Of a DNA stretch of 64,000 nucleotides, positions 2,326 to 64,000 are shown piece by piece; the stretch's first letter is position 1; each line of letters begins with the position of its first letter. This DNA is from Escherichia phage CMSTMSU. The position numbers and the translations under genes were made by a program. The notes under the pieces are model-generated. The model was not told the origin of the DNA. It saw only the letters and a list, made by a program, of their open reading frames with translations, and did not search any database. The stretch is from the sequence record MH494197.1. One strand, given 5' to 3'.

Positions 2326-3812
2326 TGGCATATAGAATGTGGAAAAAGGTAGAACCAATGATTACAAGTTCATTGACTCTGCCATAGCAGAACAATACAA
2401 CATCGGTGGTGTTGACATGTGGCTTTATGCCTATGTCGGACCAAAACAAGTCGCTGATAACACTGATTTATCATATGGCGGTGATTATTATGGATCAGAT
2501 AGTACCGTTGTGTCAAGCATTGGTGATTTAATTTTGGTGACACTCCAAGTCGTAACTATAATCTCGAAGCTATCACCTTAAGTTGCGTCTACCAAGTCCA
2601 AGAAGCAACTCCTGACTTGAAAATCCCGATTGTTCTTCAACTTTAACACTATGGACATCACAATTCATTATAACACAATGATTCAGCGTTTGGGAAGAAA
2701 AATTATGCCGTGACGTAATCGAACTTCCTAACTTACGTGATTTTGATGTACTTGGTAAAGATTCTGGTTTAAACCGCTTCTATGTAGTACAAGATGGGTT
2801 TAGAACGTCAGAAGGTTACTCAGTTACATGGCAACATCACATTTACAAACTCCGTGTTAAACCTCTTACTGATTCACCAGAGTACTCTGACCTTCTAGGT
2901 AACAATAACTACCCTGATGACCCAGATGATCCAAACAACGGCAATGGTAATACTGATGATGGCTCTTCAGAGAACAGCAGCTATGGTAATGAAATGGATA
3001 TTATGAACCGTATCATTATGCAAGCTGATGATGAAGTACCATACATTCATTTTACTAACGAACACTTGTTCGATGACAGACCAGATACTGTTGATTTGTC
3101 TAAGTATATGCTAAATGGATACGAATTACCAGAGGAACCAGCAAATAAAATGTATTTCCTCAAGAAAACTTACCCAGTACTGAAAGAACTATCTAATGAT
3201 ACATGGATTTCTGTAGAAGTCAAGCGTGGAACAATCTTTCCTCGCAAACCGATGGATGGTGACTTCTTCTTTAAAGAAAACGAGGCTGATGTCACTGGCT
3301 TCTCATTGTATCAATACGATAAATCTGCCAAAAGTGGCTAAATTGTGATGTTGAGTATACTACAGAAAGCACACCACCACAAGGGGTTGATGATTTTTAT
3401 ATTGAATACAAAGAACCACACATTTATCAGTACTTAAATGGTAAATGGGGAGAACCAGAAGTAACTTACGTTAATGACCCATTCACTTCTAATAGTGTTT
3501 ATGGAAATATCGATTCACAACAAGATTATCGTCCTAAGATTCCTCCAGCACGAGGTACAGTTCCTGAAGGTAACATGTTCCCAAGTGATGCAGTTGATGG
3601 TGATTACTACTATCGTACCGATTATACACCAGTAACCCTATGGGAATACAGTGCGTCCAAGAATTCTTGGGTGATTTTCGATTACGGTGGTAGAAAACCG
3701 TGGAAGGTGCAGATCTTGCTCTAACAGAATTTGTTAATAGCCCGAACCGTGTGCCATTACATGATGCAGTTAAACCTAATACAGTGTATCGTATACATAA
3801 GGATTCAGAATG
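2326..3812 (+). CDS. hypothetical virion (baseplate/tail?) protein, about 495 aa, frame broken
   Basis: Same-strand ORF pieces (2339-2581, 2994-3341 and unlisted frames between) read as one protein with an Asp/Pro/Gly-rich linker; stop overlaps the next start as ATGA at 3810. Function not recognised. Confidence 0.4.
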
Positions 3813-5132
3813 AAAATAGATTATTATTATGATGGTCAATTTCGTCGAGTACTGAAACATCTTATCAGAGTGTTTGGTGAATTTCAAGTACAAAATGGTG
3901 TTGATGCTGACGGAAAACCAAAATATAAGAAAGTTCCTTGCCGCTATGCAGATATTTCACGTATGGCAGCAGCAATTATTAATGGTAACAGTGAGAACGT
4001 GCTTCCAACAGCACCAATCATGACCATTAGTGTAAACCAACTTAAACTAGATCGCAAGTCAGTTCGTTCAAACGCAAATGAAACATTGGTTATGGGGACT
4101 AACAAGTCCCGAATTAACGAATATACTAAAGACTTAGATAAACAGTATAAAGTAACTCGTCATAACCCAGTACCTTGGACATTTACTTTTGATGTTAATA
4201 TTTGGGTTACACAAACACAAACCAAAATGGAACTATTTGAGCAAATTTCAACATTGTTTGCTCCTAGTATTCAATTACAACTCTCCGAGAACCCATTGGA
4301 TTGGACATCATTGAGTGATGTGGAGTTAATTGACTGTCAATTTACTACTCGTGGTTTCCCACAAGGAACCGATAGTGATTTGGATATAATGATTTTGACA
4401 TTTGAAACAACAATTTGGTTCTCTTTGCCAGCTATTGTTGAGAAACCAAAACTTATTCAACAAATTACCACCAATATTAAAGGTGCTCGTGATGAACTTG
4501 ATTTTGAAATTGGTAATTACTCGGATATCATTACTGATGTATTCACACCAAAGAACTTATGTATTAAAGTTGATGAAATAACAAACTCTGAACTTAATAT
4601 TCCAGATACTTACCAACTCACTCTTGTTAGTCAATCACTATCAGAAACATCACCAAATGGTGGAATTTATTCATGGGAAAAATACCTTAAGTACTTGGAC
4701 CCAGAATATGAAGACAAGACGGTTGGTATCAAATTCCAACAAGCTATAGAAGAGGACAACCCACTAAAAGGACACATCTCTTCATTTGGTGAAGGTGCTG
4801 AATCTAACAAGATTGTAGTTCAGCTTGATAATAGTAATTATACTGTTGATTATACAATACATGGATTCATTAGTAAAAGCTCTTTGTTATATAACGCACT
4901 GCCTGAACAATATTATGTAAATAATAGCATACATAACATCATTTACAAAGAGACTGAAATCCCAGCGAACTATTTGTTTAAAATTACCAATGATGGAGCA
5001 GAACTTATTGAGCCATCACTAGTACACAACTATGTTTATAATATGGAAGATAGTGGATATTATAGATATAATGACAAATTCAAATGGCATAAGAGTATTA
5101 TGTCAGTATATCGTCAGGGTATTGGAAAATAA
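3810..5132 (+). CDS. hypothetical protein, 440 aa, probably structural
   Basis: Intact 440-aa ORF translationally coupled to the upstream gene inside the structural block; no motif recognised. Confidence 0.55.
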   Translation: MKIDYYYDGQFRRVLKHLIRVFGEFQVQNGVDADGKPKYKKVPCRYADISRMAAAIINGNSENVLPTAPIMTISVNQLKLDRKSVRSNANETLVMGTNKSRINEYTKDLDKQYKVTRHNPVPWTFTFDVNIWVTQTQTKMELFEQISTLFAPSIQLQLSENPLDWTSLSDVELIDCQFTTRGFPQGTDSDLDIMILTFETTIWFSLPAIVEKPKLIQQITTNIKGARDELDFEIGNYSDIITDVFTPKNLCIKVDEITNSELNIPDTYQLTLVSQSLSETSPNGGIYSWEKYLKYLDPEYEDKTVGIKFQQAIEEDNPLKGHISSFGEGAESNKIVVQLDNSNYTVDYTIHGFISKSSLLYNALPEQYYVNNSIHNIIYKETEIPANYLFKITNDGAELIEPSLVHNYVYNMEDSGYYRYNDKFKWHKSIMSVYRQGIGK

Positions 5133-5161
5133 CTTTCACTGACAAATAAGGAGGTGTTGTT

Positions 5162-5623
5162 ATGAATGAAGCAGTAGGTGCTATATTTTTATCTAAAAGT
5201 ACTGGACATATGATGTTAAACTTGAGATCAGAAAGAAGTACGTATTCTAACAACTGGGCATTTGTTGGTGGGAAGCTTGAGTATAATGAAACTCCGTTAC
5301 AGGGTCTTATGCGTGAGATTAAAGAAGAGCTAGGTGATTCTATTCCAACGATAATAGATATTATACCATTTGATGTATTCTGTACGAAGAATGGTAAATT
5401 TAAATATTATTCATTTGTCATTGTAGTTGAAAATGAATTCGTACCTACTTTAAATCATGAGAGTTCGGGTTATGCATGGGTTAAGATTGGCTCATGGCCC
5501 AAACCATTACATCCGTGCAAAAACACATTACTTAACACAAATTTAATGAAGGATTTCTATTCATTGTGGGAAAGTATACGACAAGGTACACAGTTTGTCA
5601 ACAGCTTACCATATCGATATTAA
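5162..5623 (+). CDS. NUDIX hydrolase
   Basis: Nudix box GGKLEYNETPLQGLMREIKEELG (GX5EX7REUXEEXGU); RBS AAGGAGG 8 nt upstream. Confidence 0.75.
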   Translation: MNEAVGAIFLSKSTGHMMLNLRSERSTYSNNWAFVGGKLEYNETPLQGLMREIKEELGDSIPTIIDIIPFDVFCTKNGKFKYYSFVIVVENEFVPTLNHESSGYAWVKIGSWPKPLHPCKNTLLNTNLMKDFYSLWESIRQGTQFVNSLPYRY

Positions 5624-5655: not shown

Positions 5656-6327
5656 ACCCCAATTAGTGGGATACCTGTTATGTTAAGTAGAACAGATGCT
5701 TGAAGCTTAACTGACTCACCTGCCGAAAGGTTGTTTACTATACCATCGACGCGGAACCCTAAGTTTTTATTAGAGTTGAGAGAGTTAATCACCCAGTTTT
5801 CGTAATCCGCTTTTGTAATACCATTCGGATTTGGGAGAGTTGGATCAACATCATTAATTACCATAGAAACATCCCAATTCGGGCGACTACTTGTAATTAC
5901 ATCCTTGATTGATTCTAGTTGTGTAATGCGACGTGGATCTGGAATCTGACTTGCACCAATTGAACCGAAAAATGTACCTTGGTTATCAACATAGAACTGA
6001 CCTTTAATGAAAAATGTTTTGAATTATACGGAAGAGAAACAATTTCACCTGATGAATCACTAACTTCACGAATCATAATTTTCAATTCATAAAAATAGTT
6101 ACTACCAAATTCAAACACACCAGTACCATTTGTGAATGTTGTCCAGTTATTTGAATCAACCTGTGAAGTACCACCCATATTGAAGTACGCTAATGGCTTA
6201 GTACTGTTACTTTGTGTAAATTCAATATATTTCTTACCTGTATCATAGTTGATATCAAGTAGTGTTGAGTACTCTTTATTTTCTGGACGAGATGTTTGAA
6301 TTTCACGCCATTCTTTATTTTTCATTA
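5652..6327 (-). CDS. hypothetical tail/fibre-associated protein (two ORF pieces)
   Basis: ORFs 5915-6325 and 5652-5864 in the same orientation; start ATG overlaps the upstream stop (TAATG). Confidence 0.35.
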
Positions 6328-6746
6328 GGACACGAAGGAATCACCATTACTGGTAAGAACCATACGACCCATAATACTATTTTCACCATCTGGTACTGTG
6401 TTGAAAATTGAAATCATTGGGATAGATGCCCAGTCAGCTTCAGATGCAGTATCTACTGGCTGACGAGCATTATCAACTAATGCAAGAAGTAGTTCGCCAG
6501 TGTTGCCAGTATTTCTGTACCAAATCTGACCATTAACGTTACCACGAGGTGCAGTAGCTCCACTGAAGTTCTCAACCAAGTGGAGGAAGTTTTCGTTCCA
6601 TGCTTGACCGTAACCAACTTTATTTCGACCTGCAAAGTTTAACGGTACTGGGTTACTACCGTTGGTTTGGTCCTAATATTACGTTATTTGGAATGGTAGC
6701 ATAAACGCTACCATTACTTCTATAAATTGTATAACTTACACTCATA
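6325..6746 (-). CDS. hypothetical fibre-like structural protein, about 140 aa, frame broken near N-terminus
   Basis: ATG at 6746 then MSVSYTIYRSNGSVYATIP..., continuing after a frameshift into ORF 6325-6579 (NVNGQIWYRNTGNTGELLLAL). Confidence 0.35.
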
Positions 6747-6951: not shown

Positions 6952-7364
6952 CTAATGTGCAAATACAGACGATATCAGTGTAAGCTTGGCACGGAATGTG
7001 AACAGTTGTAATGTTGTTATATTGTGAATCAATACCAGCAGAGATACGTGGGTTGATTTTTTCAGATAAGTCTGAGAATATAGACCACCGAAAGAAGTAA
7101 CGCGTGGTTTCTTGTATGTGATACGACCAGTACTCAAAACTACTGTTCCACCATTACCAAAACGCATCTCACTAATAGATCCAATAGGAATACCAGTACT
7201 ATCTTGATTATAAGCCAACGCATTAGCAATAGCAGTACTCATATTTTCAGGGTGAATTGCGTTTGATTTATCCAAAACGATTTTTGGTTAGATGGATCAG
7301 TAACGTCAGTAATTAGTACATGACCCTTAACAAATAGTTTTGGTTGTTCTGTTTCTAATTTCAT
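6952..7364 (-). CDS. hypothetical structural protein (fragmented; 3' end uncertain)
   Basis: ORF 6952-7275 plus an upstream in-phase segment starting at ATG 7364 (MKLETEQPKLFVKGHV...). Confidence 0.3.
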
Positions 7365-7408
7365 TTCTAATCCTTAGTAGTTAATTAAAATTTGTTCTAA
7401 CTTACCAG

Positions 7409-7870
7409 CTAAACTTTTTGTACATCAGATGGATACTTGCTAATGTAATCACGGTCAATACCGACTTTCAGATAGGTAAAGTTTCCGGTTAAGGTTTCAG
7501 CGAATGTACCAGTTGTACCTTGTTCTCTAATAAGGTCACCGCCATTTGGGTTAAGAATGACATTATCAGTAAATTCAAGATAGAAGTTGCAGCTTTCGGT
7601 AAATTTAATTGGGAACCAATCATCGTCAGATGGATTACTTGCCAGTGTAGCGAGTACGTAAATTCTACCAATGAAGTTACGTAGGGTAAAGGATATTGTA
7701 TGTAATCCTGTAGTACTACCATAATAGCCGCCACTAGCTAATGGTAATGTTTGTTCGTTCCAATGATAATCTAAGTTAGCAGGATACCAGCTATCTGATT
7801 CAGGAAATTCTTGCCATGAACCATCTTTAGTTTTTCTTTTGAAGAGGAAGTCTTTTGATCTTAATGCCAT
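7409..7870 (-). CDS. hypothetical structural protein, 153 aa
   Basis: ORF with RBS-like AAAAGGG upstream; divergent from the 7980 gene. Confidence 0.4.
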   Translation of the reverse strand: MALRSKDFLFKRKTKDGSWQEFPESDSWYPANLDYHWNEQTLPLASGGYYGSTTGLHTISFTLRNFIGRIYVLATLASNPSDDDWFPIKFTESCNFYLEFTDNVILNPNGGDLIREQGTTGTFAETLTGNFTYLKVGIDRDYISKYPSDVQKV

Positions 7871-7935
7871 TGTTAAGCCCTTTTAGTAGTGAACTTTCAT
7901 TTATTTATTAATGGCAACGAAATGTATTTTGTACT

Positions 7936-7955
7936 GATAAATATTGGTATATGAC
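7936..7955 (+). promoter_or_regulatory. late-promoter-like motif TGATAAATATTGGTATATGA
   Basis: Shares the (C/G)TAAATA..GTATAT core with the fibre-gene upstream motifs; 25-45 nt upstream of ATG 7980. Confidence 0.3.
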
Positions 7956-7979
7956 ATTAACTCATACAAGGGAAATATT

Positions 7980-9105
7980 ATGACAATTTCATTCAACAAT
8001 GGGTCAGGTGGTTCATGTAATAATTCTGGCATCAAAAGTTTAGTTATTAACGCTGCTGGACATTTAATTGTAACCTATTCCGACAATACAATCCAAGACC
8101 TAGGTCTAGTGGTTGGACAAAATGGTGCTAACGGTAGAAACTTTTATCCAAATGAGATAGGTTTTGAAGTTCCTAATGAACTCTTCCGTGTTGGTGAAGA
8201 ACTAGGGTGGTGTTATCTTAGTCTTGCAAACGGCACTAGTACTTTATATTTTAAATCAAACGATGCCCAAGAAACAATTAGTACTTGGAACCGTGTAGAG
8301 TTTGGTAAAGGTGATACTGGTGAAGCTGGTAAACCATTCCACATTGACAGTTCTGGTACGGCGTTTCCAACAACTGGTCTTTTCGATAATTACACATTCT
8401 ATAATACTGAAGATGGTAAATTATATTTCTATCAAAGCGTAACTGCAACATGGAGTGATGGTATTCCTTTCCGTGGTGAACAAGGTCTACGTGGTCGTTT
8501 CCATATTGATAGTACTGGTAGTCAATTCCCAAGCATTGATAATCTACCACAAGATTATTGCTTCTATAACACGACAGATGGTAATTTGTATTATGTCGAT
8601 ATCGTAACTACATCATCAACCCCAACTAAAGAGTGGAGTGCTGGTATCTTATTCCGTGGAAAAGACGGTGAAGAAGGTAAGCAAGGTGAACAAGGTATTC
8701 AGGGTGAACGGTAAAGATACAGTTGTTATCATCAACACTATTGATCATTCATGGACTAACGCATTGTTAGTTATTGGTACATGCCCTGCTGGATACCTAG
8801 TAACTAATATCGAAGTTGATATTAACCAAGCATATGATGAACCAGTAAATGAAATGTTTGTACGTTTCGGTGGTGAAGCACAAGAAGATATTGGTGGTAC
8901 TGTAATTGCACCTGTTGATTATTTCGATATCAACCGCAAAATGCGTTACATTGTTAACGAAACCAACCACGAAGTATCAAGTAAAGATGAAATCATTTCT
9001 TGTGTATTCAATGATTCCGTAAACAACAGTTCATTTGGTGAAATGAAGATCGTTTGTACTTTATCATGGCAAGCACCTATTCAGCCTATTCAAGATAACA
9101 TTTAA
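7980..9105 (+). CDS. fibre protein with collagen-like Gly-X-Y stretch and internal ~50-aa tandem repeat (one frameshift near 8700)
   Basis: GKDGEEGKQGEQGIQGER Gly-X-Y run; repeated block HIDSSGTAFPTTGLFDNYTFYNTEDGKLYFY / HIDSTGSQFPSIDNLPQDYCFYNTTDGNLYYV; ORFs 7944-8714 and 8638-9105 overlap in different frames. Confidence 0.55.
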
Positions 9106-9118
9106 AGAGGGTTGATAA

Positions 9119-9150
9119 ATGGCAGTTTTTCCAATTTAGAAGGGACCATG
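9119..9150 (+). other. conserved leader cassette copy 1: 6-codon uORF MAVFPI with stop 8 nt before main start
   Basis: ATGGCAGTTTTTCCAATTTAGAAGGGACCATG; 30 of 32 nt identical to 11263-11294. Confidence 0.5.
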
Positions 9151-11283
9151 ATGCCAACATTCAAGTTGGGTAAACGTGGTGCTTCTATTAATTTTGTAAA
9201 CGATTCTGTCGCAATCAAAGACTTTTAGGCGAAACGTTCCTACCTGTTAAGGTGGGAACTCCTAATGACGATGATTCCGCAGTAAACGTTAGGTATCTTG
9301 AAGATAACCCAAATGCTTTATTTGGCGTACTTCCACCAACAAATGACATTGGTAAAAATAACAACACTTATTTTCAAGTTGATTCTGAGGGTATTGTTGA
9401 TATCTTTGCAAAACAAATGATGTTTGGGTAAAATCATTATACATTAATAAAAATGTCCTTTCCAGTGTTAACGGTGCTGATTATATCGGACTTATTACTG
9501 GAGGAACACTTCAACAGGCACAGTTTTACATAACACCAGAAGAGTTTGGTGCAAAGGTGATGGCATCACTGATGACACGGCGGCGTTAACGCATGTGCAG
9601 TTTATGCTAAAGAACACAAAATCCAAATTCAAGCTGGTGGTAATTATCGTATCAGAACTGCTGTTTATTTGAATGATATTCAATGGTTTGGTGGTACAAT
9701 CACTGGTAACGGTGGCACAATGGTATCGGTACTGAATAGTACAATCCAACAAGCAACATTAACAGGATGTTATTTAAAATTCTTTGGTGGTAATGGTAAA
9801 TTTTATTTTAATAAATTTATTAATATTACAAGTACTGCTGCATTTCTAATGCAAGGTATGACTGAATCAGGTACTATCGACTTCTGCTTTAATGAAATGA
9901 CACAATGTAAGTACGGTGTTCTTCAGCAAGGCACTGGTGAAAAATGACAGTTGGGCGTTATTCATACAACCACATCCATGATATATATGGTGATGCAATT
10001 GAATTGAACGTAGTCAACTCACATTACCCAGACGGATTTGTAATAGAAGGCAACTTGATTGAAAACGTAGATGGTACAAATGCACCAATTCCTCTTTCAA
10101 ACTGGGGTATTGGTATCGGTGTTGCAGGTTCTGGTCCTTATGATGTGAATGCTGATGATTCACAATATGTAAAAAATTCGTTATAAAAATAACCGCTTGT
10201 ACAATGTCCGTCAATGTATTCACGTTGAGTTGGGTAAAGACTTTAAAATTCTCAATAATGAAGTTTATCCATCAACGTTGGTATCAATTGGTACTGGTTT
10301 GACAACCGCTGGTGTAATTACTTATGGTTCTGTTGATTTTATTATTGATGGCCTATCTGGGCATCTATTAAATGATCCATCAGTAACTAACCGTATGGTT
10401 TCTATTAACTGGGGCGTAACATCTGGTAAATTTGCTGGTCCTCCACGAAACTTTAAATTATGTAATCTCCACATTCCTGAGTCGTCTATTATTGTGTATA
10501 CTTCAGGCTCTGATAATTGGCTAAATACTACTGAACTTTCTAATATTACATGTAGTAGAATTCAATGGCGTGGATTGCCGTCATCTTCCAAGTTTAATAA
10601 TATCAGTACTAAAGAACTTGATGTTATTGGACAACACCTTGCAACTGAAGGTGAAGGAGGGGCTTATATACTCGCTCTAAATATACATATACCAACTGGA
10701 CTAATTGTGTTGTTCAAGATGATTGTAACATATCAAAATATAGTTTCTCAAGAATGTATGTTGACCGTATTGACCAATCATCTAATAACTTTAAAGTAAC
10801 CACTGCAATTGATGGAACGGGTCATCGTGGACCTGTAGTAATACCTGTAGTTGAACAGTATTACGTGCCTTATGATGTTTTTCCGGTGGGAGATATTTCC
10901 CAACAGGAACAATTATCCATAAACAATCAGGTGGAAAATTTATTGTTACAGTAGGTGGTTCTTTCTTTGGTCGATATGACACAATTAGACAAACAGTTGC
11001 AGGACAAACTTATATCGAAGCATTGGGTGTATCATGGGGTGATAATCAATATGCTAAAGCTGCTGGAACCGAAATCCTAATCACAGGAGCAGGGGAAAAT
11101 GGCGAAGATTTAAAACATATATCACTAGAGCAGTTTATGTTGTTAATAATGCGTATCGTATCGATATTGCCGATCCGATTGTTACTGCTACCGCAGCAGG
11201 GCATTATTGAAAGCTGCTCAACCAATAACATATATCACCCTATCTTAAAGGAGATTATAAAAATGGCAGTTTTTCTAATTTAG
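9148..11283 (+). CDS. tailspike-like receptor-binding protein with pectate-lyase-type beta-helix motif (heavily frame-broken; 3' end uncertain)
   Basis: Motif PEEFGAKGDGITDDTAAL at about 9535-9595; N-terminus MMPTFKLGKRGA paralogous to the 11292 gene; ORF pieces 9669-9947, 9944-10186, 10197-10799, 10754-10954, 11023-11283. Confidence 0.5.
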
Positions 11284-11294
11284 AAGGAACCATG
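11263..11294 (+). other. conserved leader cassette copy 2: 6-codon uORF MAVFLI
   Basis: ATGGCAGTTTTTCTAATTTAGAAGGAACCATG. Confidence 0.5.
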
Positions 11295-12157
11295 AAGAAG
11301 ACCTTCATACTTGGTAAAAATGGTGCACAAATTGCCACTAATGGTAATGTTGTTCAAATCCAGAACTACACGGGTACACAACTTCTTCCTGTTTCAGCAG
11401 GTGACCCAACCGCAAATACACACTTGGTTACATTGGGTTATTTGAATACACATAGCGGTGGTGGTGGCGGTTCCGGTATTTTACGTGGAACTATTGCACC
11501 ATCTGAATCAATCGGTGTAGATGGTGACGCTTACTTCTTAGTTGACAGTACTAATATTATTCAGATCTATATTAAAGACCTTGGTGTTTGGAAGCCTCTC
11601 CAAAGCACAACTCCGTACTGATAGTTCTTACGTTACTACTGAAATCGTTCCTGTATCGGCATTTACATTAGTTCACGGAACAACAGATCAATATACTTAT
11701 TCTTTACCTGAATCAGTACATGGTCGTGGTCCAGATATTATGGTTCAGCTACAGGGTGATCCCGGTAACATCCCACTTGACACTGTATTCCAAACTAACG
11801 TCACTGTGAGTGGTATTGGTGACATTACGATTGATGTTATTGGTCAAATTACTGAATACACAAGTGTCAAAGTCAACATCATAGGAGCAACAACAATGAC
11901 AGTACCTTATAGTAAATTAATTAATATAGCAGATTGGGTAGCATCTGGTGATGATTACACCATTACTGTTCCAGCGTCAGAACATAACCAAACACCTGAC
12001 AATTTGTATATTTCTATATATTCAAATAAAACACCGCAGTACAGCAGCATCACCATTTGAACTGGTAATAACCGAAACTCAAATTGATGCAAGTGGTAAT
12101 GTTACATTCACTTCTGATGAAGCGTTTAGTGGTAAAATAGTAATTTCCGGTAAATAA
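11292..12157 (+). CDS. fibre protein paralog with poly-Gly linker (frame-broken)
   Basis: N-terminus MKKTFILGKNGAQIA matches the 9148 gene N-terminus; HSGGGGGSG linker; ORFs 11292-11621, 11542-12060, 11948-12157. Confidence 0.45.
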
Positions 12158-12165
12158 AAAATAAT

Positions 12166-12198
12166 CCAGACTGCGTTCCATCGAGTCTGGATTTTTAT
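12166..12198 (+). terminator. intrinsic terminator
   Basis: CCAGACTgcgttccatcgAGTCTGG followed by ATTTTTAT. Confidence 0.6.
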
Positions 12199-12205
12199 AT
12201 TAATA

Positions 12206-12226
12206 ACTAAATATATGTATATTAAC
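12206..12226 (+). promoter_or_regulatory. late-promoter-like motif ACTAAATATATGTATATTAAC
   Basis: Near-identical motif at 17281-17300 upstream of the paralogous fibre gene; 46 nt upstream of ATG 12272. Confidence 0.4.
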
Positions 12227-12271
12227 AAGGTCAAATGTATTTTATGCTTTTGCCTATTTGGAGGGAACTAA

Positions 12272-15200
12272 ATGTACTCGATTAAAACAGATCTAGATAT
12301 AACTGGTGGTGCAACGGTTGGTAAAGATCTTCTTGTGAAAGGCGATGCAGTATTCAATAAAAATCTAACAGTTAATGGAACTGTAACTTTTGCTGACGCT
12401 GTATTCACTGCAATTGAAGCAGGAACTGTAGACATTTCATCTACACTAGATGTTGCTGGTAAAGCATCATTGAATGGTGGAATTGAAGTTCATGGTAATT
12501 CCGTAATTGGTAATTTGCCTGTTGGCTCTGATACTGCAACGATTAATTCTAATGCACAATTCCAAAGCCCAGTATCAATGGCAGGTAACCTAACACAAAC
12601 CGCTGGCACTGCTGTACTAAAAGATACCCAAGTGGCATCAATGGATGTTCTTGGAACTTCTTCATTTAAAGGTAATATTACTGCTGAAACTGGCACTACC
12701 GCAGCATTTGACAAAATAACTGCAACTGATGCAACATTCACAAACACTGCAACTACTGATATCACATCAACTGGAACTGCAAACTTTAAAGATGTGAATA
12801 TTTCCGGTACACTAGGTGGAACATTTAGTCTATCTGATGTTAATGCAACAACTCTAACTGTTTCTGGTTTAACCAGTCTACAAGGTGGTGTTACATTAGG
12901 TTCCAACATTACTGGTGTGAATAGTAGTGCAAACTTCCGTGATATTAAAATTGGTTCCAATGCTGCAAACACTAACTACCGTTTGAGCTTTAACTATTCT
13001 GCTCCAAGTCTTCGCCCAACTGTAATTCTACAGAACGAAATCCAATCAGAATTGATGTCTCCAGCTACCCTAAGTGTATTGAAAACTGCATCTTTTGGTG
13101 ATTCGTCATTATCCACTTTTGGTATTACTGGTAATGGTCTAAACAAACTAGATTACCTAACAGTATCTGGTAACTCTGTTCAAGATCCAGCAACTCCACT
13201 ATTACAAGTAACTTCAGGTAAAACTAAAGTTCATGATTTCGAAGTAACAGGAACTGCAACTATTCCTAACATTGAAAGTACTGGTACTGCTAATTTTAAT
13301 AACATCAACGTATCTGGTACACTCGGCGGTACTTTCAGTCTTGATGATATTGAAGCAAACACTCTAACTGTTTCTGGATTAACTAGCCTTGTTGGTGGTG
13401 TAACTTTAGGTGCTGATATTTCCGGTGCTAATAGTACTGCTAATTTTAAAGCAGTAAGTTTAGGACAAAACGCAGCCGATGCTAACGTTAAGTATGGTTT
13501 TGCTTATTCTGCCCGGTGCTCGTCCAACTGTAATTCTACAAAATGAAATTCAGTCTGAACTAGTATCTCCAGCAGTACTAAATGTACAAAAACTGCTACC
13601 TTTGGTGATGCATCTCTTGCAACCTATGGTATCACAGGTAACGGTCTAAACAAACTAGATTATCTATCTATTACTGGTAATGGTACACAAAGTCCAGCTA
13701 CCCCACAACTACAAGTAGCTGGTAAATCAGTACTAAATGATGTTGAATTCACTGGTACTGTAACTGGTCTAACTGTTGATGTGAGTGGACAAGATCTAAC
13801 TCCTAAATCAGTAGTTGCTGCTGAAGCAATCAAAGGTCAAACCCTTGAATCAGTTGGTCAAACCACCGTAGGAACTAACCTACAAGTTGGTGGAACTGCT
13901 AATGTTGTTGGTGCACTAACTGGTACTGCTGCTACCTTCACTGGTGATGTAAGTGCTGCTAAAGGTACTTTCAGTGGTGATGTTAGCGTTACTGGTCAAA
14001 CTGTAACTGTACGTGATTTAGTAGTAACTGGTACAACTACTGGTGTAACTGCCCAAGCTGATGTTGATGGTCTTGATATCGCCCCAAATAAAGTTGATGT
14101 TACAACAACACTATCTGTTGCTGGGGACACTACTTTAGCTGGCCTAACTGCTAGTTCAGTAACCAGTACTGGTGATGTTACTGGTGCGTCTGTATCTGGT
14201 AATACAGTAACTGCGGCTGGTGCACTATCTGGTGGTTCTCTTGCAGTAACTGGTGCTGGTTCTATGGCTTCACTAACTGTTCCAAGTATTACTGGTGACA
14301 CTACTTTTGCTAATAACGTAACTATTACTGGAACACTAACTCCGAGTAGTATAGATTTAAGCACTACTGATGTAAGTGCTGCTTCTTTAACAACTACTGG
14401 TAACGTAACTGTTGGTGGTTCTCTTGCAGTAACTGGTGCTATTGATTTGTCTGCTGCTGATGTAGTAACAAAATCAGTTAGTGCAACTAACCCAAGTACA
14501 TTTGGTGTAATTAATGCATCTTCTGTTGTCGCAACTGGTGACGTTTCAGGTGGCACTCTAACTACTACTGGTGCAGCGAAAGTAGGAACACTAACTAGTA
14601 CTGGTGTAGTATCTGGTTCGCGTTTGTCTTCTGGTACTGCAACAATCTCAACTTCTGTAACAGTTCCAACTTTACAAGCTGAAGCTGCTGGTGCTGGTAC
14701 ACTAAATCTAGCAAGTAATGTTGTCGCGGCAAAGATCTAACTGTCACTGGTGTATTCAAACCTGAAGGTGGTCTTGACCTAACAACTGTTGATATTACTG
14801 CAAACTCACTAACTACTACTGCTGATGTTAATGTTGGTGGAAACTTAGTAGTTGATGGTACTTTTGACCTAAGTGCTGCTGATGTGTCTGTGAAATCTCT
14901 TGCAAGTGCAGAGACAATTACAAGTGCTGGTGTTATTACCGTTACCGATTCAACCAATACTAGTTCGTTACCTAAAATTACTTCAACTGATGCAACACTC
15001 TTTACAGTAAATGCAGGTACTATTAATGCAACTGGCAACAGTGTACTACAAAGTGTATCAGCTACTCAAGTAACTGCAACTAGTGCTGAATTGACTGGTG
15101 TTGGTCTTGGTCTTCAAGTCGATAATGATGCAAACGTTGGTGGTGCATTATCTGTTGGTGGAATCGCAACTGTTGGTTCTTTAACAACAACTGCTGCTTC

Positions 15201-17201
15201 TCTTAATATTGCAAAAATACTGCAATCACTGGTGATTTAGCTGTATCTGGCACACTAACTGCTGGTTCAATCGACCTAAGCAATACTGATGTAACCGTTA
15301 AATCTCTTGATTCACTAGGTAACGCACACATTGCTGGTGACCTAACTGTAGATGGTGCATTCGACTTAAGTGCAACTAACCTTGTAGCTGCAAGTCTAGC
15401 AAGTACTGGTTCTACTACTGTTGGAACTGATCTAGTACTAACAACTGGTGTTGTGACTGGTAGCCCAGCTATCTCTGGTAATACAACAATCGGTGGAACT
15501 CTTGGTGTAACTGGTGCTGTTAACCTAACTGATATTGTTAATATCGGTAAGAAAGTAACAGTGAGTACTGGTGGTATTCAGGTAGTTGATGGTGGTATCA
15601 ATACTAACACAATTAACGTTTCTGGTGCTTCTACTCTAGCAGGAACTTCCATTACTGGAACTTTAGGTGTAACTGGTGCTTCTACTCTAGCAGGTGTATC
15701 TGCGACATCACTAACAGTTTCTGGTGACAGTACTGTTCAGAAACTAACTGTCCAAGGTGAATTGATCCCACAAGGTGGTCTTGACCTAAGCGGTGCAGAC
15801 ATTACTGCTAATAGTCTAACTACTGCAACAACTATCAATGCAACTGGCCTAAGTACTCTAAGTGGTGGTGTTAGTACTTCTACTGTGACTGCATCTGGTC
15901 TAGCAACTGTTGGAAGTTTAACTTCTACTGCAAACGCATCAGTTGGTGGCAATTTGGGTGTAACTGGAACTCTAGATGTTACTGGTGCTACTACTGTATC
16001 TTCACTAACAGCTACTGGTGCAGTGAAAACTGGCACAACCCTAACTGTTGGTACTCCAGTTGGTGAACAACCTGAAACTGTACAGATCATTCCAGATACT
16101 TATATTGCTGGTAAATTGCGTGTAATCGGCGGTATTAACGCTGAAATCGACGTAAGTGGTCAAACACTAGAACCATATGCAATTGAAGCTGCTGCAACAC
16201 TATCTGCTGTTGGTAACATTACTTCTGGTGCAACCATCGTTTCTAAAGCTGCAACAATTGGTGATGTTGGTTCACAAAACAACAACCTAACTGTTAATGG
16301 TAACGTAGTAACTAATGGTGACTTCACCGTTACTGGTGTACTAAATGCACAATTGAACCAAGCAGATTCCGATGTAGCTGTTAAATCTTTAACTGCAACT
16401 AATAACGTTGCGGCTGGTACTTCAATCACTGCTGGAACATCCATCACTGCATCAGGCTTACTAAAAGGTAATTCGTTAGAAGTCACCACTACTGGTTCAT
16501 TTGGTGGTGCAGTAACTATGTCAAGTGGTGCAAACATCACTGGTACTGTTGGTATCACTGCTGGTGACCTAACAGTAGGTGGTAATATCTCTGCAACTGG
16601 GACTGCTGGATTCGGTGCAACAACCGTTTCTACCATTACAACATCAGGTTTAGCTACACTTGCAAGTGCATCTGTAACTGGTGCTCTAACTGTAGGTGGT
16701 ACATTAACTGCAAATGGTAACACTGTGATTGGTGATGCTGCTGCTGATACTTTAACTGTAAATGCAACATCGACATTTAAAGAGAACGCAACATTTGATA
16801 AGAACCTAACAGTGACTGGTTCTATTAACACCACCACTGCAAACTTCACCACAAACAACATGGTAACTAAGAAATATTCTGTTATCCCTGCTAGTGTTAC
16901 TGCTTCTACTGCTGCTGTAGGTGGTACTTGGACACCAGATGGTACTACTAACGTATATCGCTTAACTCTTGACCAAAGTGTTACAATGGATTCCATCGCG
17001 GGTCTAATTGGTAGTGGTCAAGCATGTTCAGTGTATATCTATGTAACTCCATCTGTTGCTGATACTACTTTCACCTTCGGTGGTGCATACTCTGTAGTTT
17101 CTGGTACAGTAAGTGCTGTAGTTGGTCAAACAAGTATTATCCAAGTAATCTATGATGGTTTCAGTACTGTGTTTGATACCTTCGTTGCACAACGTGTATA
17201 A
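12272..17201 (+). CDS. giant tail fibre protein 1 (about 1640 aa; Thr/Gly/Ser/Val-rich repeats; several frameshifts)
   Basis: Same-strand ORFs 12272-13546, 13781-14740, 14884-15240, 15453-17201 with in-phase unlisted segments between; repeated LTVSG/VTGT motifs; C-terminal tip ...VYIYVTPSVADTTF...VIYDGFSTVFDTFVAQRV; RBS GGAGGGA. Confidence 0.7.
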
Positions 17202-17347: not shown

Positions 17348-20300
17348 ATGTACTCGATTAAAACGGATCTTGATGTATCTGGTAATTCCACGGTAGGTAA
17401 GGATCTTTTGGTCAAAGGTAATGCAGTATTCAGTAATGACCTAACGGTTAATGGGGAAGTGTCTTTTGCTAACGCAGTATTCACTGCAATTACCGCTGGT
17501 TCTGTGAATGTCACAGGTGCATTGGATGTTGCTGGTAAGGCAACCTTATCCGGTGGTGCTGATGTTTCAGGTGCTGCGACATTTGCAGGAAACATTACTG
17601 CTGCTGACGGCACAACTGCAAAATTTGATAACTTAGAAGCTAATTCAGGATCATTTAATTCTGTTGAATCAACTGATATTACTTCAACTGGCACAGCAAC
17701 TTTTAAAGATGTAAACATTTCTGGTACACTTGGTGGTACTTTTAATCTTTCTGATATTAATGCTACAACACTTAATGTGTCTGGTGCTTCAGCACTAACT
17801 GGTTCAGTCACATTGGGTGCAAATATCACTGGTCTTGCAAGTACTGCAAACTTCCGTGATATTCGTATCGGGCCTAATGAAGAAGGTCAAGCATATAGAC
17901 TAAACTTTGGTTACACCGTTCGGACAACGACCAACCGTTCTTCTACAGAACGAAGTTCAATCCGAACTAATGTCTCCTGCTAAGTTGAATGTTCTACAAA
18001 CTGCAACATTTGGTGATTCTTCACTTTCAACTTACGGTATTACAGGTAATGGTTTAAACAAATTAGATTATGTAACTATTTCTGGTAACGCAATTCAATC
18101 ACCAACCACTCCTTTACTTGAAGTAACTAAAGGTAAAACTAAAGTTGTTGATTTAGAAGTGACTGGCGTAGCAACTATTCCTAATATCGAAAGTTCTGGT
18201 ACTGCAAACTTTAACAACATCAACGTATCTGGTACTATTGGTGGTAGTTTTGATTTAGATGATATCCAAGCAACAACATTATCAGTATCCGGTGCTTCAG
18301 CACTAACTGGTGCAGTTACATTGGGTGCAAACATCACTGGTCTAGCAAGTACTGCAACATTCAAAGCAATCAATTTGGGTCAAAATACCGCTGATGCTAA
18401 CGTTAAGCTAGGTTTTGCATATACTGCACCTAGTGCACGTCCAACAGTCTTGTTAGCAAACGAAGTTCAATCTGAACTAATGTCTCCTGCTAAGTTGAAC
18501 GTTCTACAAACTGCAACCTTCGGTTCTGCTGCACTATCTACCTATGGTATTACTGGTAATGGTCTAAACAAATTAGATTATCTAACAATTACTGGTAACG
18601 CAACACAAAACCCTGCTACTCCACAACTTCAAGTTGGTGGTAAAGCAATTCTTAATGATGTTGAATTTACAGGTACTGTAACTGGCCTAACTGTTGATGT
18701 GAGTGGACAAGATCTAACTCCTAAATCAGTAGTTGCTGCTGAAGCAATCAAAGGTCAAACTCTTGAATCAGTTGGTCAAACAACTGTAGGTTCATCTCTA
18801 CAAGTTGGTGGTACTGCAACTGTTACTGGTGCATTATCTGCTGCCGCTGGTACTTTCAGTGGTGATGTTAGTGGTTCTAAAGGTATCTTCAGTGATAGCG
18901 TATCCGGTACAAGTGCAACCTTTACTGGGGATGTTAGCGGTGATAACGCAACCTTTAGTGGCGATTTATCTGCTGTAGCTGGCACTTTCAGTGGTGATGT
19001 AACCGTAACTGGTCAAACAATCACTGTTAAAGACTTGGTAGTAACTGGAACTTCAACTGGTGTAACTGCAATCGCTGACGTTGACGGTCTTGATATTGCT
19101 CCAAACAAAGTTGATGTTACAACAACTCTATCTGTTGCTGGTGAATCAACTCTTGCTGGTGTTACAGCAACTTCAATCAATAGTACTGGTGCAATTGCAG
19201 GTACTGCAATTTCTGGCTCTACTATTACAGCAACTGGTGAAATTTCTGGTGCATCATCTGTAGTAACTGGTCTTTCTAAATCTGGTAGCGTTGAAACTGG
19301 TGCTCTAAAGGCATCTTCTGTTGAAACTGCAATCATTAGCAACACTGCTGGTGTGTCAATAACAAACAACACTTCAATTGCAGGTAATCTATCTGTAACT
19401 GGAACTGTTACCCCGTGCAATTGACCTAAGTACTACTGATATTGATGCTAAGTCTCTAACAACTACTGAAGGTGCTAACATTGGTGGTGACCTAGTTGTT
19501 GCAGGTACAGTTGATCTAAGTGCTGCTGACGTTGCTGTTAAATCTCTAACCAGTACTGGTGCAGTTATTAGTTCTGAAGGTACAGTAAGTAGTGTTCTAC
19601 CTAAACTTTCCAGTACTGAAGCTAATATTACCACAGTAACTGCAACCACTGCAAATGCTACCACACTAAATGTAACTGGTACATCAACTCTAGCTGGTGT
19701 TAACGCTTCTGGTGCTATTACTTCTGCAACTAACATTACCGCTACTGGTGTATTAAAGGTGCATCTGTTGAAACTGCGTCAATCAGCAATGCTGATGGTG
19801 TAGCAATTAACAATAACACTACAATCACTGGTAATTTGGACGTATCTGGGACATTGACCCGTGCAATTGACCTAAGTACTACTGATATTAGTTCTAAGTC
19901 TCTAACCACAACTGAAGGTGCTACAATTGGTGGCGATCTTGTGGTAGCAGGTACTGTTGATCTAAGTGCTGCTGATGTGTCGGTGAAATCTCTTGCAAGT
20001 GCAGAGACAATTACAAGTGCTGGTGTTATTACAGTTTCGGATACAGTGAATTCTAGCACTCTACCAAAACTAATTACTACTGATGCAACTATTGGTGCTG
20101 TCCATGCAGCTACTATTGAAACAACTGGTTCAAGTACACTAAAACAAGTATCTGCTACTGAAGTAACAGCTACAAGTATTGTACTAAATTCAGTTGGTGA
20201 AGGTTTACGTGTTGACAATAATGCAAACATTAATGGTATATTAAGTGTTAATAATATTACTTCTACCAATGATACTATTGCAATTGCGAAAAGTGCTGCT

Positions 20301-45535: not shown

Positions 45536-46012
45536 TTATTTTAGAAAGTATAAGTGTTTTTCTGCATTAACCAGTCTGTGGTCAATGATTTCTTTGATAA
45601 CGTTCCAGTTACCACCGCCTAAATCGGCTCCAATTTTCGGGAAGTGTACATGAACAGTGCGTTCAACGTTACATAAGTAATTGAGTTGTTTGAAAACATC
45701 ATCGATTGCATCATAACTCACATACTTAGAACCGTCATTACCATAGTACTTTTGGGTAATGCAGTTTGCGATAAGCAAATCATCACTTATAGAAGAATAT
45801 GAAATTTGTCCTGTTCTTAGAAATCCCATTTCCTTTTCATATGCTTTATAATCATCATATGCCATCGGATAACGATTTCTTAGTTCTTTTGCAAAACCCG
45901 AACCCATCTTACCCTGTGCATTACAACCATGAGCGATTATATGCAACGCGGTTTGATCATCAGTAACAGTGTTGAACAATTCAAACAAATTACCTAGGTG
46001 TTCATGTATCAT
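45536..46012 (-). CDS. macro domain protein, TARG1/OARD1-like
   Basis: IIAHGCNAQGKMGSGFAKEL and HFPKIGADLGGGNWNVIKEII match the two conserved segments of TARG1-type macro domains as I recall them. Confidence 0.6.
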   Translation of the reverse strand: MIHEHLGNLFELFNTVTDDQTALHIIAHGCNAQGKMGSGFAKELRNRYPMAYDDYKAYEKEMGFLRTGQISYSSISDDLLIANCITQKYYGNDGSKYVSYDAIDDVFKQLNYLCNVERTVHVHFPKIGADLGGGNWNVIKEIIDHRLVNAEKHLYFLK

Positions 46013-50865: not shown

Positions 50866-51741
50866 TTAGAGTGAGCTTAACAGCAAATCCGCTCTGTTTG
50901 TAACTTGGCGATACCACAAGGAATTCATGATTTCTTTCTTGAACTTCTTAGGGTTATCCATTTTAACACTTTTCCAAAGTTTGTCAAATGTTGCCAACTT
51001 ATCAACGCCCATTGTGTATGACATTTCAAACAGGATACGCTGCTGTTCTTTTGTCAGATTAACTGCATCTTTCTTCTGCATCAATAGTGTAAAGTCCTCG
51101 TAAGTCCTTTTCATATCTTGCATTAAAAGTTTGTTGGCCTGTGCTTTGGTAATCCCGTTTCTGTACTTCATTGCATCAGAATCTTTCTTACCCAAATAAT
51201 GCCCATAACCAATTGTATAATTACCTTTCATGTCCTTATAGGGATGAAATTTAGAATTGTGGAAAGGAACTCCAACTTTCCCACCAAGTAATTTACGTTT
51301 GTTCTTGGACTGAAATTCAATAGAACCTTCAGCTTCTTTGATGTGATCGACAATTTCTGGATCTTTATAATCAAACAGTACAGTCACATCTGGTAACAAT
51401 ACGTTCTTCAAATCCTCTTTGTTGGGATAAAGATACCTGAGAAGTATGAAGAGTTGCATTTAAGTTGATATTCTTCAACAAAATGACATAATCTTCAATC
51501 TGTACATTTTAGGTTTAAATTTCTGTGCAATAGAATAATAACTATCTCCGGTTGAACCGTATAATGTTTCTCGCTGCTTGGAACTGCCTTTGGTACTGAT
51601 ACCTTTAGTAGTTCCTGCTTTTGAATTTACAACTTGTGGTTTTAAATTATGCACCTGACTTTCGTCTAATGATGATGCACGATCACTTTGAGAAAAACCA
51701 TAAAATCCAATCGCAGCGAATAGGGCTGATGAAACTAACAC
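50866..51741 (-). CDS. GH24 (T4-lysozyme-like) muramidase with LysM-like motif and N-terminal hydrophobic segment (one frameshift)
   Basis: GNYTIGYGH and SLWYRQVTNRADLL match T4 lysozyme motifs; LysM-like YGSTGDSYYSIAQKF; N-terminal Gly/Ala-rich LVSSALFAAIGFYGF. Confidence 0.7.
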
Positions 51742-51951
51742 GCCTATGGCAATTTTAGTTTTCAGTGCTTTTTCGCTTTTTCAAAACGCCTCCTTTGTTG
51801 GTTGTTAACAATGAGCAATCACAAAGAGGGCAAAGAGGCCATTTGCAAAAGCCTCATTGGACTTTCTACAGTACTCATTTGTTCTTTGGAACATTTAAGT
51901 AGTATAGCATACTTTTTAGTTATATCAAGACCTATTTACCAAATAACCACA

Positions 51952-63979: not shown

Positions 63980-64000
63980 TGGACTTTTTGATGATAAGAG

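What the first reader, a model, noticed from the sequence alone, without database searches (positions are those of the whole stretch)
9490..10950. Pectate-lyase-fold tailspike signature (likely polysaccharide depolymerase)
The motif PEEFGAKGDGITDDTAAL is characteristic of right-handed beta-helix depolymerase tailspikes. It points to a capsule or LPS-degrading receptor-binding protein, which is host-range relevant and potentially useful as an enzyme.
Basis: partly seen in the sequence, partly recalled or inferred. Interest (0 to 1): 0.5.

Follow-up and report, generated by a model that had tools for sequence, protein, structure and literature searches.

The report
Known colanidase tailspike, broken by sequencing errors
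This is the already known colanic-acid-degrading tailspike gene of a giant E. coli phage (Asteriusvirus), and its many apparent frameshifts are sequencing errors of the nanopore type, not biology, so the finding is correct but ordinary.

Summary
The motif is real, but it exists only when read across a one-base deletion. PEEFGAK lies in frame 2 (9536-9556) and GDGITDDTAAL in frame 1 (9556-9588). The final L comes from a second deletion; the true residue is V.

The full gene spans window 9119-11248 (+). It is the orthologue of Escherichia phage Ecwhy_1 gene 205, annotated "colanic acid-degrading protein" (713 aa). Restoring 12 missing bases gives a protein that differs from Ecwhy_1 at 1 of 713 residues.

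Residues 96-712 match the solved colanidase tailspike gp150 of phage phi92 (PDB 6E0V; E = 4e-233, about 56% identity). An AlphaFold2 model of a 99%-identical relative superposes on 6E0V (TM 0.92). More distant matches are classic right-handed beta-helix tailspikes.

The frameshifts are artefacts found across the whole window:
- There are 295 deletions against 18 insertions relative to Ecwhy_1.
- None of 47 CCWGG (Dcm) sites survives.
- Homopolymers of 6 bases or more are shortened in about 90% of cases.
- 36 of 37 checked genes are hit, including the tail sheath gene.

Colanic acid as substrate is inferred from phi92 gp150, whose activity was shown biochemically. Nothing here is new, so interest is low.

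The parts
9119..11248 (+). Complete colanidase-type tailspike gene. It would be 2142 nt (713 codons plus stop) when intact, but is 2130 nt here because 12 single bases are missing. Orthologue of Ecwhy_1 gene 205, PBECO4 AGC35227.1 and 121Q gene 573.
   Evidence: Global alignment to MH791411.1 and repair of the gaps; the repaired protein differs at 1 of 713 residues (A599T). The reading-frame map of the 13 segments is.
9105..9111 (+). Shine-Dalgarno-like AAGAGGG, 7 nt upstream of the ATG. It follows directly on the stop codon of the upstream fibre gene.
   Evidence: Read directly from the sequence. Its function is inferred.
9119..9427 (+). N-terminal module of about 104 aa, proposed to anchor the spike in the virion. 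It is specific to RaK2-like jumbo phages and absent from the phi92 gp150 match.
   Evidence: The PDB and PHROG matches start at residue 94-96. The module recurs at 41% identity in the next gene. It is found alone or at N-termini in RaK2, Serratia phage BF and Xanthomonas phage XbC2. Model confidence is low here (pLDDT 27-66).
9536..9588 (+). It is the N-terminal cap of the beta-helix and is split between frames 2 and 1 by the deletion at 9552.
   Evidence: Sub-threshold match to PF12708 positions 6-86 and to End_N_terminal. The same motif occurs in the Lam55A-type beta-1,3-glucanase 5M5Z.
9533..10640 (+). Right-handed parallel beta-helix body, residues about 140-510.
   Evidence: AlphaFold2 model of the 99%-identical P0001 has pLDDT mostly above 90 here. 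Superposition on 6E0V and other tailspikes.
9989..10015 (+). GDAIELNVV, containing invariant D294, E297 and N299. These are candidate catalytic carboxylates.
   Evidence: Invariant in all 35 aligned homologues, down to 24% identity. Coordinates. The catalytic role is inferred, not shown.
10100..10129 (+). NWGIGIGVAG, containing invariant W331 and the G-I-G-I-G run, one helix turn after GDAIELNVV.
10209..10235 (+). RQCIHVELG, containing invariant Q368, H371 and E373, one further turn on. This is the second group of candidate catalytic residues.
10641..11245 (+). C-terminal region, residues about 511-713. It is homologous to the C-terminal part of phi92 gp150.
   Evidence: The alignment to 6E0V continues to residue 712. 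The model is mostly confident apart from 569-578.
10165..10170 (+). Example of an artefact site. The A-run reads A6 here, A7 in Ecwhy_1 (in frame) and A8 in vB_Ec-M-J, where it splits the annotated gene in two.
11263..12160 (+). Next gene, the Ecwhy_1 gene 206 orthologue ('structural protein', 299 aa). It starts with the same MAVFSNLEGTM... N-terminal module and is also broken by deletions.
   Evidence: tblastn E = 6e-21, 41% identity over 104 aa. It carries 7 missing bases.

Best explanation
Window 9119-11248 (+) encodes the colanidase-type tailspike of an Asteriusvirus, a jumbo myovirus of E. coli related to 121Q and PBECO4. In the real phage the gene is almost certainly intact (713 aa).

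The 12 frameshifts are single-base deletions introduced by sequencing or assembly. Their pattern is typical of uncorrected nanopore data: shortened homopolymers and miscalled Dcm-methylated CCWGG sites.

The protein has three parts:
1. An N-terminal module of about 104 aa that is shared with the neighbouring fibre gene and with other RaK2-like jumbo phages. It presumably docks the spike onto the branched tail-fibre apparatus (inferred).
2. A right-handed parallel beta-helix (about residues 140-510).
3. A C-terminal domain.

By homology with phi92 gp150 (56% identity), which has been shown to hydrolyse colanic acid, the helix most likely binds and cleaves the colanic acid exopolysaccharide made by stressed or mucoid E. 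coli. This would let the virion tunnel through the slime layer to its cell-surface receptor. The likely catalytic residues are the invariant carboxylates D294 and E297, plus E373 with H371, on consecutive turns of the helix (inferred).
For: Identity and synteny:
- 99.1% nucleotide identity to Ecwhy_1, vB_Ec-M-J and EC.P1. The same gene is annotated there as colanic acid-degrading protein or colanidase tailspike.
- PBECO4 and 121Q orthologues are 713 aa.

Repair:
- Restoring 12 bases gives a 713-aa ORF with one substitution relative to Ecwhy_1.

Artefact:
- 295 deletions against 18 insertions over 62.7 kb.
- 0 of 47 CCWGG sites retained, against 109 of 114 GATC, 23 of 24 CCGG and 24 of 28 GGWCC.
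- The fraction of homopolymers shortened rises with run length: 1%, 6%, 42%, 89%, 89% and 100% for lengths 3 to 8.
- 36 of 37 checked genes carry indels, including tail sheath, neck and thymidylate synthase. The rate in this gene (5.6 per kb) matches the window mean (about 5 per kb).

Family:
- PDB 6E0V/6E0W, phi92 gp150: E = 4.3e-233 over residues 96-712.
- PHROG 6117 'colanic acid degradation': E = 3.5e-252.
- Homologues carry precomputed PF27800.

Fold:
- AlphaFold2 model with pLDDT 82 matches 6E0V at TM 0.92 and rmsd 2.9 A, then other beta-helix tailspikes.

Activity of the reference enzyme:
[quoted passage not shown] The source is PMC13450770 citing Xu et al. 2025, Int J Biol Macromol 303:140646.

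Conserved residues:
- D294, E297, N299, W331, Q368, H371 and E373 are invariant in 35 homologues.

Context:
- The gene lies in a + strand block of tail-fibre and structural genes.
Against: - No enzymatic, virion-proteomic or oligomerisation data exist for this phage. Substrate specificity is extrapolated across 56% identity.
- Which residues are catalytic in gp150 was not checked against the structure paper or against model coordinates.
- The structure model is of a 99%-identical relative (P0001).
- The sequencing platform is inferred from the error pattern, not known.
- From my own recollection, not verifiable here because the paper is not held: Kim et al. 2015 (Appl Environ Microbiol 81:900) reported that a colanic-acid-overproducing mutant resisted PBECO4 until an external colanidase was supplied. 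If so, the Asteriusvirus enzyme may be weak on, or not specific for, that polymer.
Confidence: 0.9

Rival explanations
1. The fold and role are the same (virion beta-helix depolymerase), but the substrate is a different polysaccharide, such as an O-antigen, a group 1/4 capsule or another exopolysaccharide. On this view the label 'colanidase' was carried over by annotation.
For: Identity to the only biochemically characterised close relative is 56%, and tailspike specificity can change at that distance. Annotations in the genus are inconsistent: 'degrading', 'biosynthesis', 'tailspike' and 'hypothetical' all occur. My unverified recollection of Kim et al. 2015 (see evidence against the best explanation) points the same way.
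Against: The alignment to gp150 is gap-poor along the whole helix and C-terminal domain. The family's conserved core is also homologous to WcaM of the colanic acid gene cluster, which ties the family to this polymer. Relatives are spread over phages of E. coli K-12, Salmonella, Cronobacter, Enterobacter and Kosakonia, and these hosts share colanic acid rather than one K or O type.
Confidence: 0.12
2. The gene is a true pseudogene: a decaying tailspike that this phage no longer needs.
For: There are 12 frame disruptions in 2.1 kb of the window sequence.
Against: The same density of indels hits 36 of 37 genes, including essential ones. Errors are almost all deletions at homopolymers and at every CCWGG site. 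Apart from the indels the protein is 712/713 identical to an intact relative, and neutral decay would not leave it so.
Confidence: 0.02
3. The gene is a WcaM-type 'colanic acid biosynthesis' auxiliary metabolic gene expressed in the host, rather than a virion protein.
For: Several GenBank records call it colanic acid biosynthesis protein. PHROG 6117 is filed under 'moron, auxiliary metabolic gene and host takeover'. The core matches the WcaM models at E = 9e-27.
Against: The WcaM score is 94 bits against a cut-off of 808, and only residues 262-466 align. The best match is a solved tailspike. The gene has a fibre-type N-terminal module shared with the adjacent structural gene and sits within the tail-fibre block.
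Confidence: 0.02
4. The frame changes are programmed recoding, or reflect a genuine avoidance of CCWGG sites by the phage.
For: The window contains no CCWGG at all.
Against: Relatives that are 98-99% identical have 47 such sites at the same positions. In the window each is replaced by a 1-3 base deletion or a miscall that breaks the reading frame. Twelve shifts per gene, in every gene, is not a known recoding regime.
Confidence: 0.01

Closest known systems
Ecwhy_1 gene 205 (QAY00484.1), BF17 'colanic acid biosynthesis protein' (P0001), vB_Ec-M-J EcMJ_307/308 'colanidase tailspike', PBECO4 AGC35227.1, 121Q gene 573 (Asteriusvirus orthologues)
   Same: Same gene at the same locus. It is 99% (Ecwhy_1, BF17) to 85% (121Q/PBECO4 type) identical in protein, has the same 713-aa length and has the same neighbours.
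   Different: There is only one amino-acid difference from Ecwhy_1 after repair. The window copy carries 12 artefactual deletions.
Phage phi92 gp150 colanidase tailspike (PDB 6E0V, 6E0W)
   Same: Residues 96-712 are homologous (E = 4e-233, 55-56% identity). The model superposes at TM 0.92 and rmsd 2.9 A. It is a beta-helix tailspike, and colanic acid hydrolysis is documented for gp150.
   Different: The N-terminal attachment module differs. The jumbo-phage module (residues 1-95) has no counterpart in the gp150 match. In phi92-like proteins the N-terminus is longer and carries PF26208 (P0004, P0006-P0008: about 804 aa). The phage family also differs: about 148 kb Justusliebigvirus against about 350-380 kb Asteriusvirus.
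Other phage colanidases (NST1 CAE of Firozi et al. 2010; J8-65; tailspike colanidases of small podoviruses such as forsur and aldrigsur)
   Same: They have the same proposed role. The podovirus proteins labelled 'tailspike colanidase' align over residues 115-710 at 32-33% identity. The colanidase halo and synergy phenotype is described in PMC4179555.
   Different: These are distant in sequence and have P22-type head-binding (PF09008) or other N-terminal adaptors. The direct relationship to NST1 CAE was not tested here.
WcaM (colanic acid gene cluster protein of E. coli and Salmonella; TIGR04004 / NF007517)
   Same: The conserved core (residues 262-466) is homologous (E = 9e-27). A WcaM-like protein keeps all invariant residues of the family.
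   Different: The phage protein scores 94 bits against an equivalog cut-off of 808, so it is not WcaM. WcaM is a 464-aa cellular protein without the tailspike N- and C-terminal parts.
Classic beta-helix tailspikes (P22/Sf6/HK620, CBA120 TSP2/3) and Pfam PF12708
   Same: Same fold class and same modular logic of an adaptor followed by a beta-helix enzyme. The N-cap motif FGAxGDGxTDDTxA is shared with PF12708 members.
   Different: Sequence identity is only 6-13%. The PF12708 score is below the gathering threshold (17 against 27 bits).

Membership tests
phi92 gp150-type colanidase tailspike (PHROG 6117 / PF27800) | Sequence homology across the whole enzymatic part | tested here: met
   PDB 6E0V E = 4.3e-233, residues 96-712 against 11-623. 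PHROG 6117 E = 3.5e-252, profile positions 93-709 of 711. All 45 homologues carry precomputed PF27800. PF27800 itself is not in the local Pfam copy.
phi92 gp150-type colanidase tailspike (PHROG 6117 / PF27800) | Right-handed parallel beta-helix fold | tested here: met
   AlphaFold2 model of the 99%-identical P0001, pLDDT 82. Foldseek match to 6E0V at TM 0.92 and rmsd 2.9 A. The repaired window protein itself could not be submitted.
phi92 gp150-type colanidase tailspike (PHROG 6117 / PF27800) | Conserved active-site residues | tested here: inconclusive
   D294, E297, N299, W331, Q368, H371 and E373 are invariant in 35 homologues and present in the repaired window protein. Which residues are catalytic in gp150 could not be verified.
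phi92 gp150-type colanidase tailspike (PHROG 6117 / PF27800) | Hydrolysis of colanic acid | not testable with these tools
   Known for gp150 only, from the literature. Inferred here at 56% identity.
phi92 gp150-type colanidase tailspike (PHROG 6117 / PF27800) | Homotrimeric virion-attached spike | not tested
   Only a monomer was modelled. Context within the tail-fibre gene block, and an N-terminal module shared with the adjacent structural gene, support virion attachment.
   17 bits against a cut-off of 27. Only residues 143-225 align, which is the N-cap with the motif.
Pectate / polysaccharide lyase (enzymatic class) | Beta-elimination mechanism | not testable with these tools
   The closest characterised enzyme is described as hydrolysing a glycosidic bond. 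The term 'pectate lyase' applies here to the fold only.
WcaM equivalog (TIGR04004 / NF007517) | Score at or above the curated cut-off over the full length | tested here: not met
   93-94 bits against 795-808. Only profile positions 160-354 of 464 align.
Asteriusvirus genome (origin of the window) | Collinear, near-identical DNA across the window | tested here: met
   Window 1-62689 aligns to MH791411.1 at 98.3% in one piece and 62698-64000 at 99.2%. The taxonomy of the hits is Asteriusvirus.

The most novel reading that the evidence does not exclude
The most novel reading that the evidence does not exclude concerns the host rather than the phage. A proven phage colanidase family and the cellular protein WcaM share a beta-helix core in which the same residues are invariant (D294, E297, N299, W331, Q368, H371, E373). 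WcaM has no assigned biochemical function as far as I know. WcaM may therefore be an endogenous colanic-acid glycanase that trims or releases the polymer, by analogy with BcsZ, AlgL and PslG in other exopolysaccharide operons. On this view the phage tailspike module was captured from, or shares ancestry with, the host's own wcaM.

A second and weaker reading is that the Asteriusvirus enzyme has drifted to another substrate.
Probability: 0.3. Interest if true: 0.4.

Novelty: already known. Interest (0 to 1): 0.1.

Why it matters
Biologically the finding adds little. The gene, its fold and its likely activity are already annotated in at least nine near-identical Asteriusvirus genomes, and the homologous enzyme of phi92 has both a crystal structure and biochemistry.

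The practical value is a warning about data quality. This window has about 5 indels per kb, placed systematically at homopolymers and at every Dcm site. Any 'frameshift', 'pseudogene' or 'short ORF' finding from it should be discounted until the sequence is polished. The complete loss of CCWGG also suggests, as an inference, that the phage DNA was Dcm-methylated and hence grown on a dcm+ host.

For applied work, the repaired 713-aa sequence is a usable candidate colanidase, for example against mucoid or biofilm E. coli, or for producing colanic acid oligosaccharides.

Tried and rejected
I used the 99%-identical database protein P0001 with a 35-sequence alignment instead.
- The Pfam scan of the intact orthologue gave only two sub-threshold hits, PF12708 and End_N_terminal.
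- No tRNA genes were found in the window.
- The paper by Kim et al. 2015 on PBECO4 and a colanic-acid-degrading enzyme (PMC4292498) is not held. Searches of papers that cite it gave only indirect statements.
- A search for a demonstrated WcaM hydrolase function produced no paper whose title or abstract addressed it; none of the listed papers was opened.
- I considered and rejected a true pseudogene, programmed frameshifting, genuine CCWGG avoidance and a WcaM-type metabolic gene (see rival explanations).
- The low-confidence N-terminal 135 residues of the model (pLDDT 27-66) could not be assigned a fold.

Full report
**1. What is in the sequence**

Six-frame listing of 7000-14000 shows no long ORF across the flagged interval. 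It shows a chain of short + strand ORFs in alternating frames. Three-frame translation shows PEEFGAK in one frame and GDGITDDTAAL in another. The exact positions are 9536-9556 (frame 2) and 9556-9588 (frame 1), and no frame holds the contiguous 18-mer.

**2. Origin of the window**

Megablast of 9000-12000 against phage genomes gives 99.1% identity over 100% of the query to Escherichia phages Ecwhy_1, vB_Ec-M-J and EC.P1. It gives about 80% identity to 121Q, PBECO4 and others. All are jumbo myoviruses of the genus Asteriusvirus. The whole window is collinear with Ecwhy_1: positions 1-62689 align at 98.3% and 62698-64000 at 99.2%. In Ecwhy_1 the region holds one intact 2142-nt gene, Ecwhy1_205, annotated 'colanic acid-degrading protein' (713 aa). 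It is flanked by genes annotated as structural or tail-fibre proteins.

**3. The frameshifts are artefacts**

Alignment to Ecwhy_1 places the gene at window 9119-11248 with 12 single-base deletions. Filling them in gives a 713-aa protein that differs from Ecwhy_1 at one residue, A599T. Several results show the deletions are not biological.

- Across the window there are 295 deletions against 18 insertions.
- Their placement is systematic, as the two tables below show.
- Of 37 checked genes, 36 carry indels, including tail sheath, neck protein, thymidylate synthase and the large fibre genes. The rate in the tailspike gene (5.6 per kb) is the same as the window mean of about 5 per kb.

| Site type | Sites unchanged in the window |
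|---|---|
| CCWGG | 0 of 47 (most collapsed to CC-GG, CC--G or C--GG) |
| GATC | 109 of 114 |
| CCGG | 23 of 24 |
| GGWCC | 24 of 28 |

| Homopolymer length | Fraction shortened |
|---|---|
| 3 | 1% |
| 4 | 6% |
| 5 | 42% |
| 6 | 89% |
| 7 | 89% |
| 8 | 100% |

A phage with such lesions in every gene could not be viable, and a decaying pseudogene would not stay 712/713 identical at the protein level.

Shortened homopolymers together with errors at the Dcm motif are, to my knowledge, the classic signature of uncorrected Oxford Nanopore assemblies of DNA from dcm+ E. coli. CCWGG is the Dcm 5mC motif, and nanopore signal detects methylation there (PMC8495745). The platform itself is inferred, not known.

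One detail is telling. The A-run at 10165-10170 is A6 in the window, A7 in Ecwhy_1 (in frame) and A8 in vB_Ec-M-J. In vB_Ec-M-J that single difference splits the gene into two annotated 'colanidase tailspike' CDSs.

**4. What the protein is**

- The intact orthologue matches PHROG 6117 'colanic acid degradation' at E = 3.5e-252.
- Residues 96-712 match the crystal-structure sequence of phi92 gp150 (PDB 6E0V, 6E0W) at E = 4.3e-233.
- Pfam gives only sub-threshold hits for the motif region: PF12708 at 17 bits against 27, and End_N_terminal. The motif alone is suggestive, not diagnostic.
- A search of the large protein collection found 45 relatives, all with precomputed PF27800. They range from 99% identity (BF17) and 85% (121Q type) to 24-30% identity.
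- These relatives carry varied N-terminal adaptors: PF26208, PF18668, the P22 head-binding domain PF09008 and the tail-collar domain PF12571.
- Across 35 aligned sequences, D294, E297, N299, W331, the GIGIG run, Q368, H371 and E373 are invariant.

**5.

An AlphaFold2 model was built from that alignment with P0001 as target. P0001 is 708/713 identical to Ecwhy_1. The model has mean pLDDT 82, and above 90 for most of residues 140-510. It consists of a long series of short strands.

Foldseek against the PDB returns 6E0V first, described as 'Apo crystal structure of the colanidase tailspike protein gp150 of Phage Phi92' (E = 9e-61, TM 0.92 by target length, rmsd 2.9 A, 55% identity). After that come AlgE epimerases and the tailspikes of CBA120, HK620, Sf6, phi297 and Acinetobacter phages. 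The beta-helix prediction is therefore met.

In the model the motif forms the N-terminal cap: a strand at 149-153 and a helix at 155-168. It is not a catalytic element.

**6. Architecture and mechanism**

Residues 1 to about 104 are not part of the gp150 match. They recur at 41% identity (E = 6e-21) at the start of the next gene, window 11263 onward. They are also found in RaK2, Serratia phage BF and Xanthomonas phage XbC2. In RaK2 the syntenic slot between mutT and thymidylate synthase holds a stand-alone 115-aa ORF061 consisting of this module.

I infer that this module is the adaptor that plugs different distal proteins into the branched fibre apparatus of RaK2-like jumbo phages. I also infer that the colanidase beta-helix is a horizontally exchanged cassette. 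The same cassette occurs in phi92-like phages, phAPEC8-like phages and small podoviruses.

phi92 gp150 is reported to hydrolyse colanic acid at the beta-1,4 linkage between glucose and fucose (PMC13450770 citing Xu et al. 2025). Colanidase-producing phages make spreading halos on mucoid E. coli and help other phages reach the cell (PMC4179555).

The most likely function here is the same: degrading the colanic acid slime so that the virion reaches its receptor.

- Shown: homology, fold, conserved residues and gene context.
- Inferred: substrate, catalytic residues, trimer formation and virion location.

**7. Comparison and novelty**

The gene is an orthologue of already annotated genes in at least nine near-identical genomes. 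It is a clear member, by sequence and by fold, of the gp150 colanidase family.

It is not a PF12708 member by the curated threshold. It is not WcaM either (94 bits against a cut-off of 808), which means the 'colanic acid biosynthesis protein' label on some records is a mis-transfer. Nothing about the gene is new.

The one loosely interesting side observation is the shared, fully conserved core with WcaM-like proteins. It hints that the cellular WcaM might itself be a colanic acid glycanase. I did not pursue this beyond family scans and one literature search that produced no paper whose title or abstract addressed it.

**8. Verdict**

- Observation: partly confirmed. The motif is stitched across a frameshift, its last residue is wrong, and the coordinates cover about two thirds of the gene.
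- Interpretation: supported and sharpened to a colanidase-type beta-helix tailspike.
- Frameshifts: sequencing artefacts.
- Novelty: already known.
- Interest: low.

Noticed in passing
window 1-64000: The whole window carries systematic errors relative to a 98-99% identical genome. There are 295 deletions against 18 insertions. None of 47 CCWGG sites survives, while GATC, CCGG and GGWCC are largely intact. About 90% of homopolymers of 6 bases or more are shortened. Any ORF-level finding from this window needs frame repair first.
   Followed up: yes
L002 (OQ718158.1 vB_Ec-M-J) 3121-5263; window 10165-10170: The public record vB_Ec-M-J annotates two 'colanidase tailspike' CDSs. Over the gene it differs from Ecwhy_1 only by A8 against A7 in one homopolymer, so the split is probably also a sequencing error in that record.
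   Followed up: yes
window 9119-9427 and 11263-11591; L006 (RaK2) 6001-6348: An N-terminal module of about 104 aa (MAVFSNLEGTM...) is shared by the tailspike and the next structural gene (41% identity). It exists as a stand-alone 115-aa ORF061 at the syntenic position in Klebsiella phage RaK2. It is probably a common docking adaptor of RaK2-like jumbo phages.
   Followed up: partly
window 9900-10510 (protein residues 262-466): The conserved core is homologous to WcaM of the bacterial colanic acid gene cluster (E = 9e-27, far below the equivalog cut-off). A WcaM-like protein (P0045) keeps every invariant residue of the phage family. This explains the 'colanic acid biosynthesis protein' mis-annotations and hints that WcaM may be a glycanase.
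   Followed up: partly
window 12272-17201 and 17348-23050: These are two very large paralogous fibre genes, annotated 'long tail fiber proximal subunit' (1644 and 1899 aa in Ecwhy_1). Their internal segments cross-match at 73-83% nucleotide identity. The second carries apparently genuine in-frame differences from Ecwhy_1, for example an 18-nt insertion at 22528.
   Followed up: no
window 45655-45870, about 50900-51784 and 61971-63159: These patches have much denser indels and mismatches than the window average. The lysozyme gene has 28 indel bases per kb and the nucleotidyltransferase gene has 14 per kb. They are either locally divergent sequence or low-coverage assembly.
   Followed up: no
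window 7980-9104: The upstream fibre gene (Ecwhy_1 gene 204 orthologue, 375 aa) contains a short collagen-like G-X-Y run (GKDGEEGKQGEQGIQGER), around 8660-8714. A CCAGG-site deletion at 8710 breaks the frame there.
   Followed up: no
PHROG 6117 (database annotation): The PHROG family that holds these tailspikes is categorised as 'moron, auxiliary metabolic gene and host takeover', although its members are tailspike proteins. The category label is misleading.
   Followed up: no
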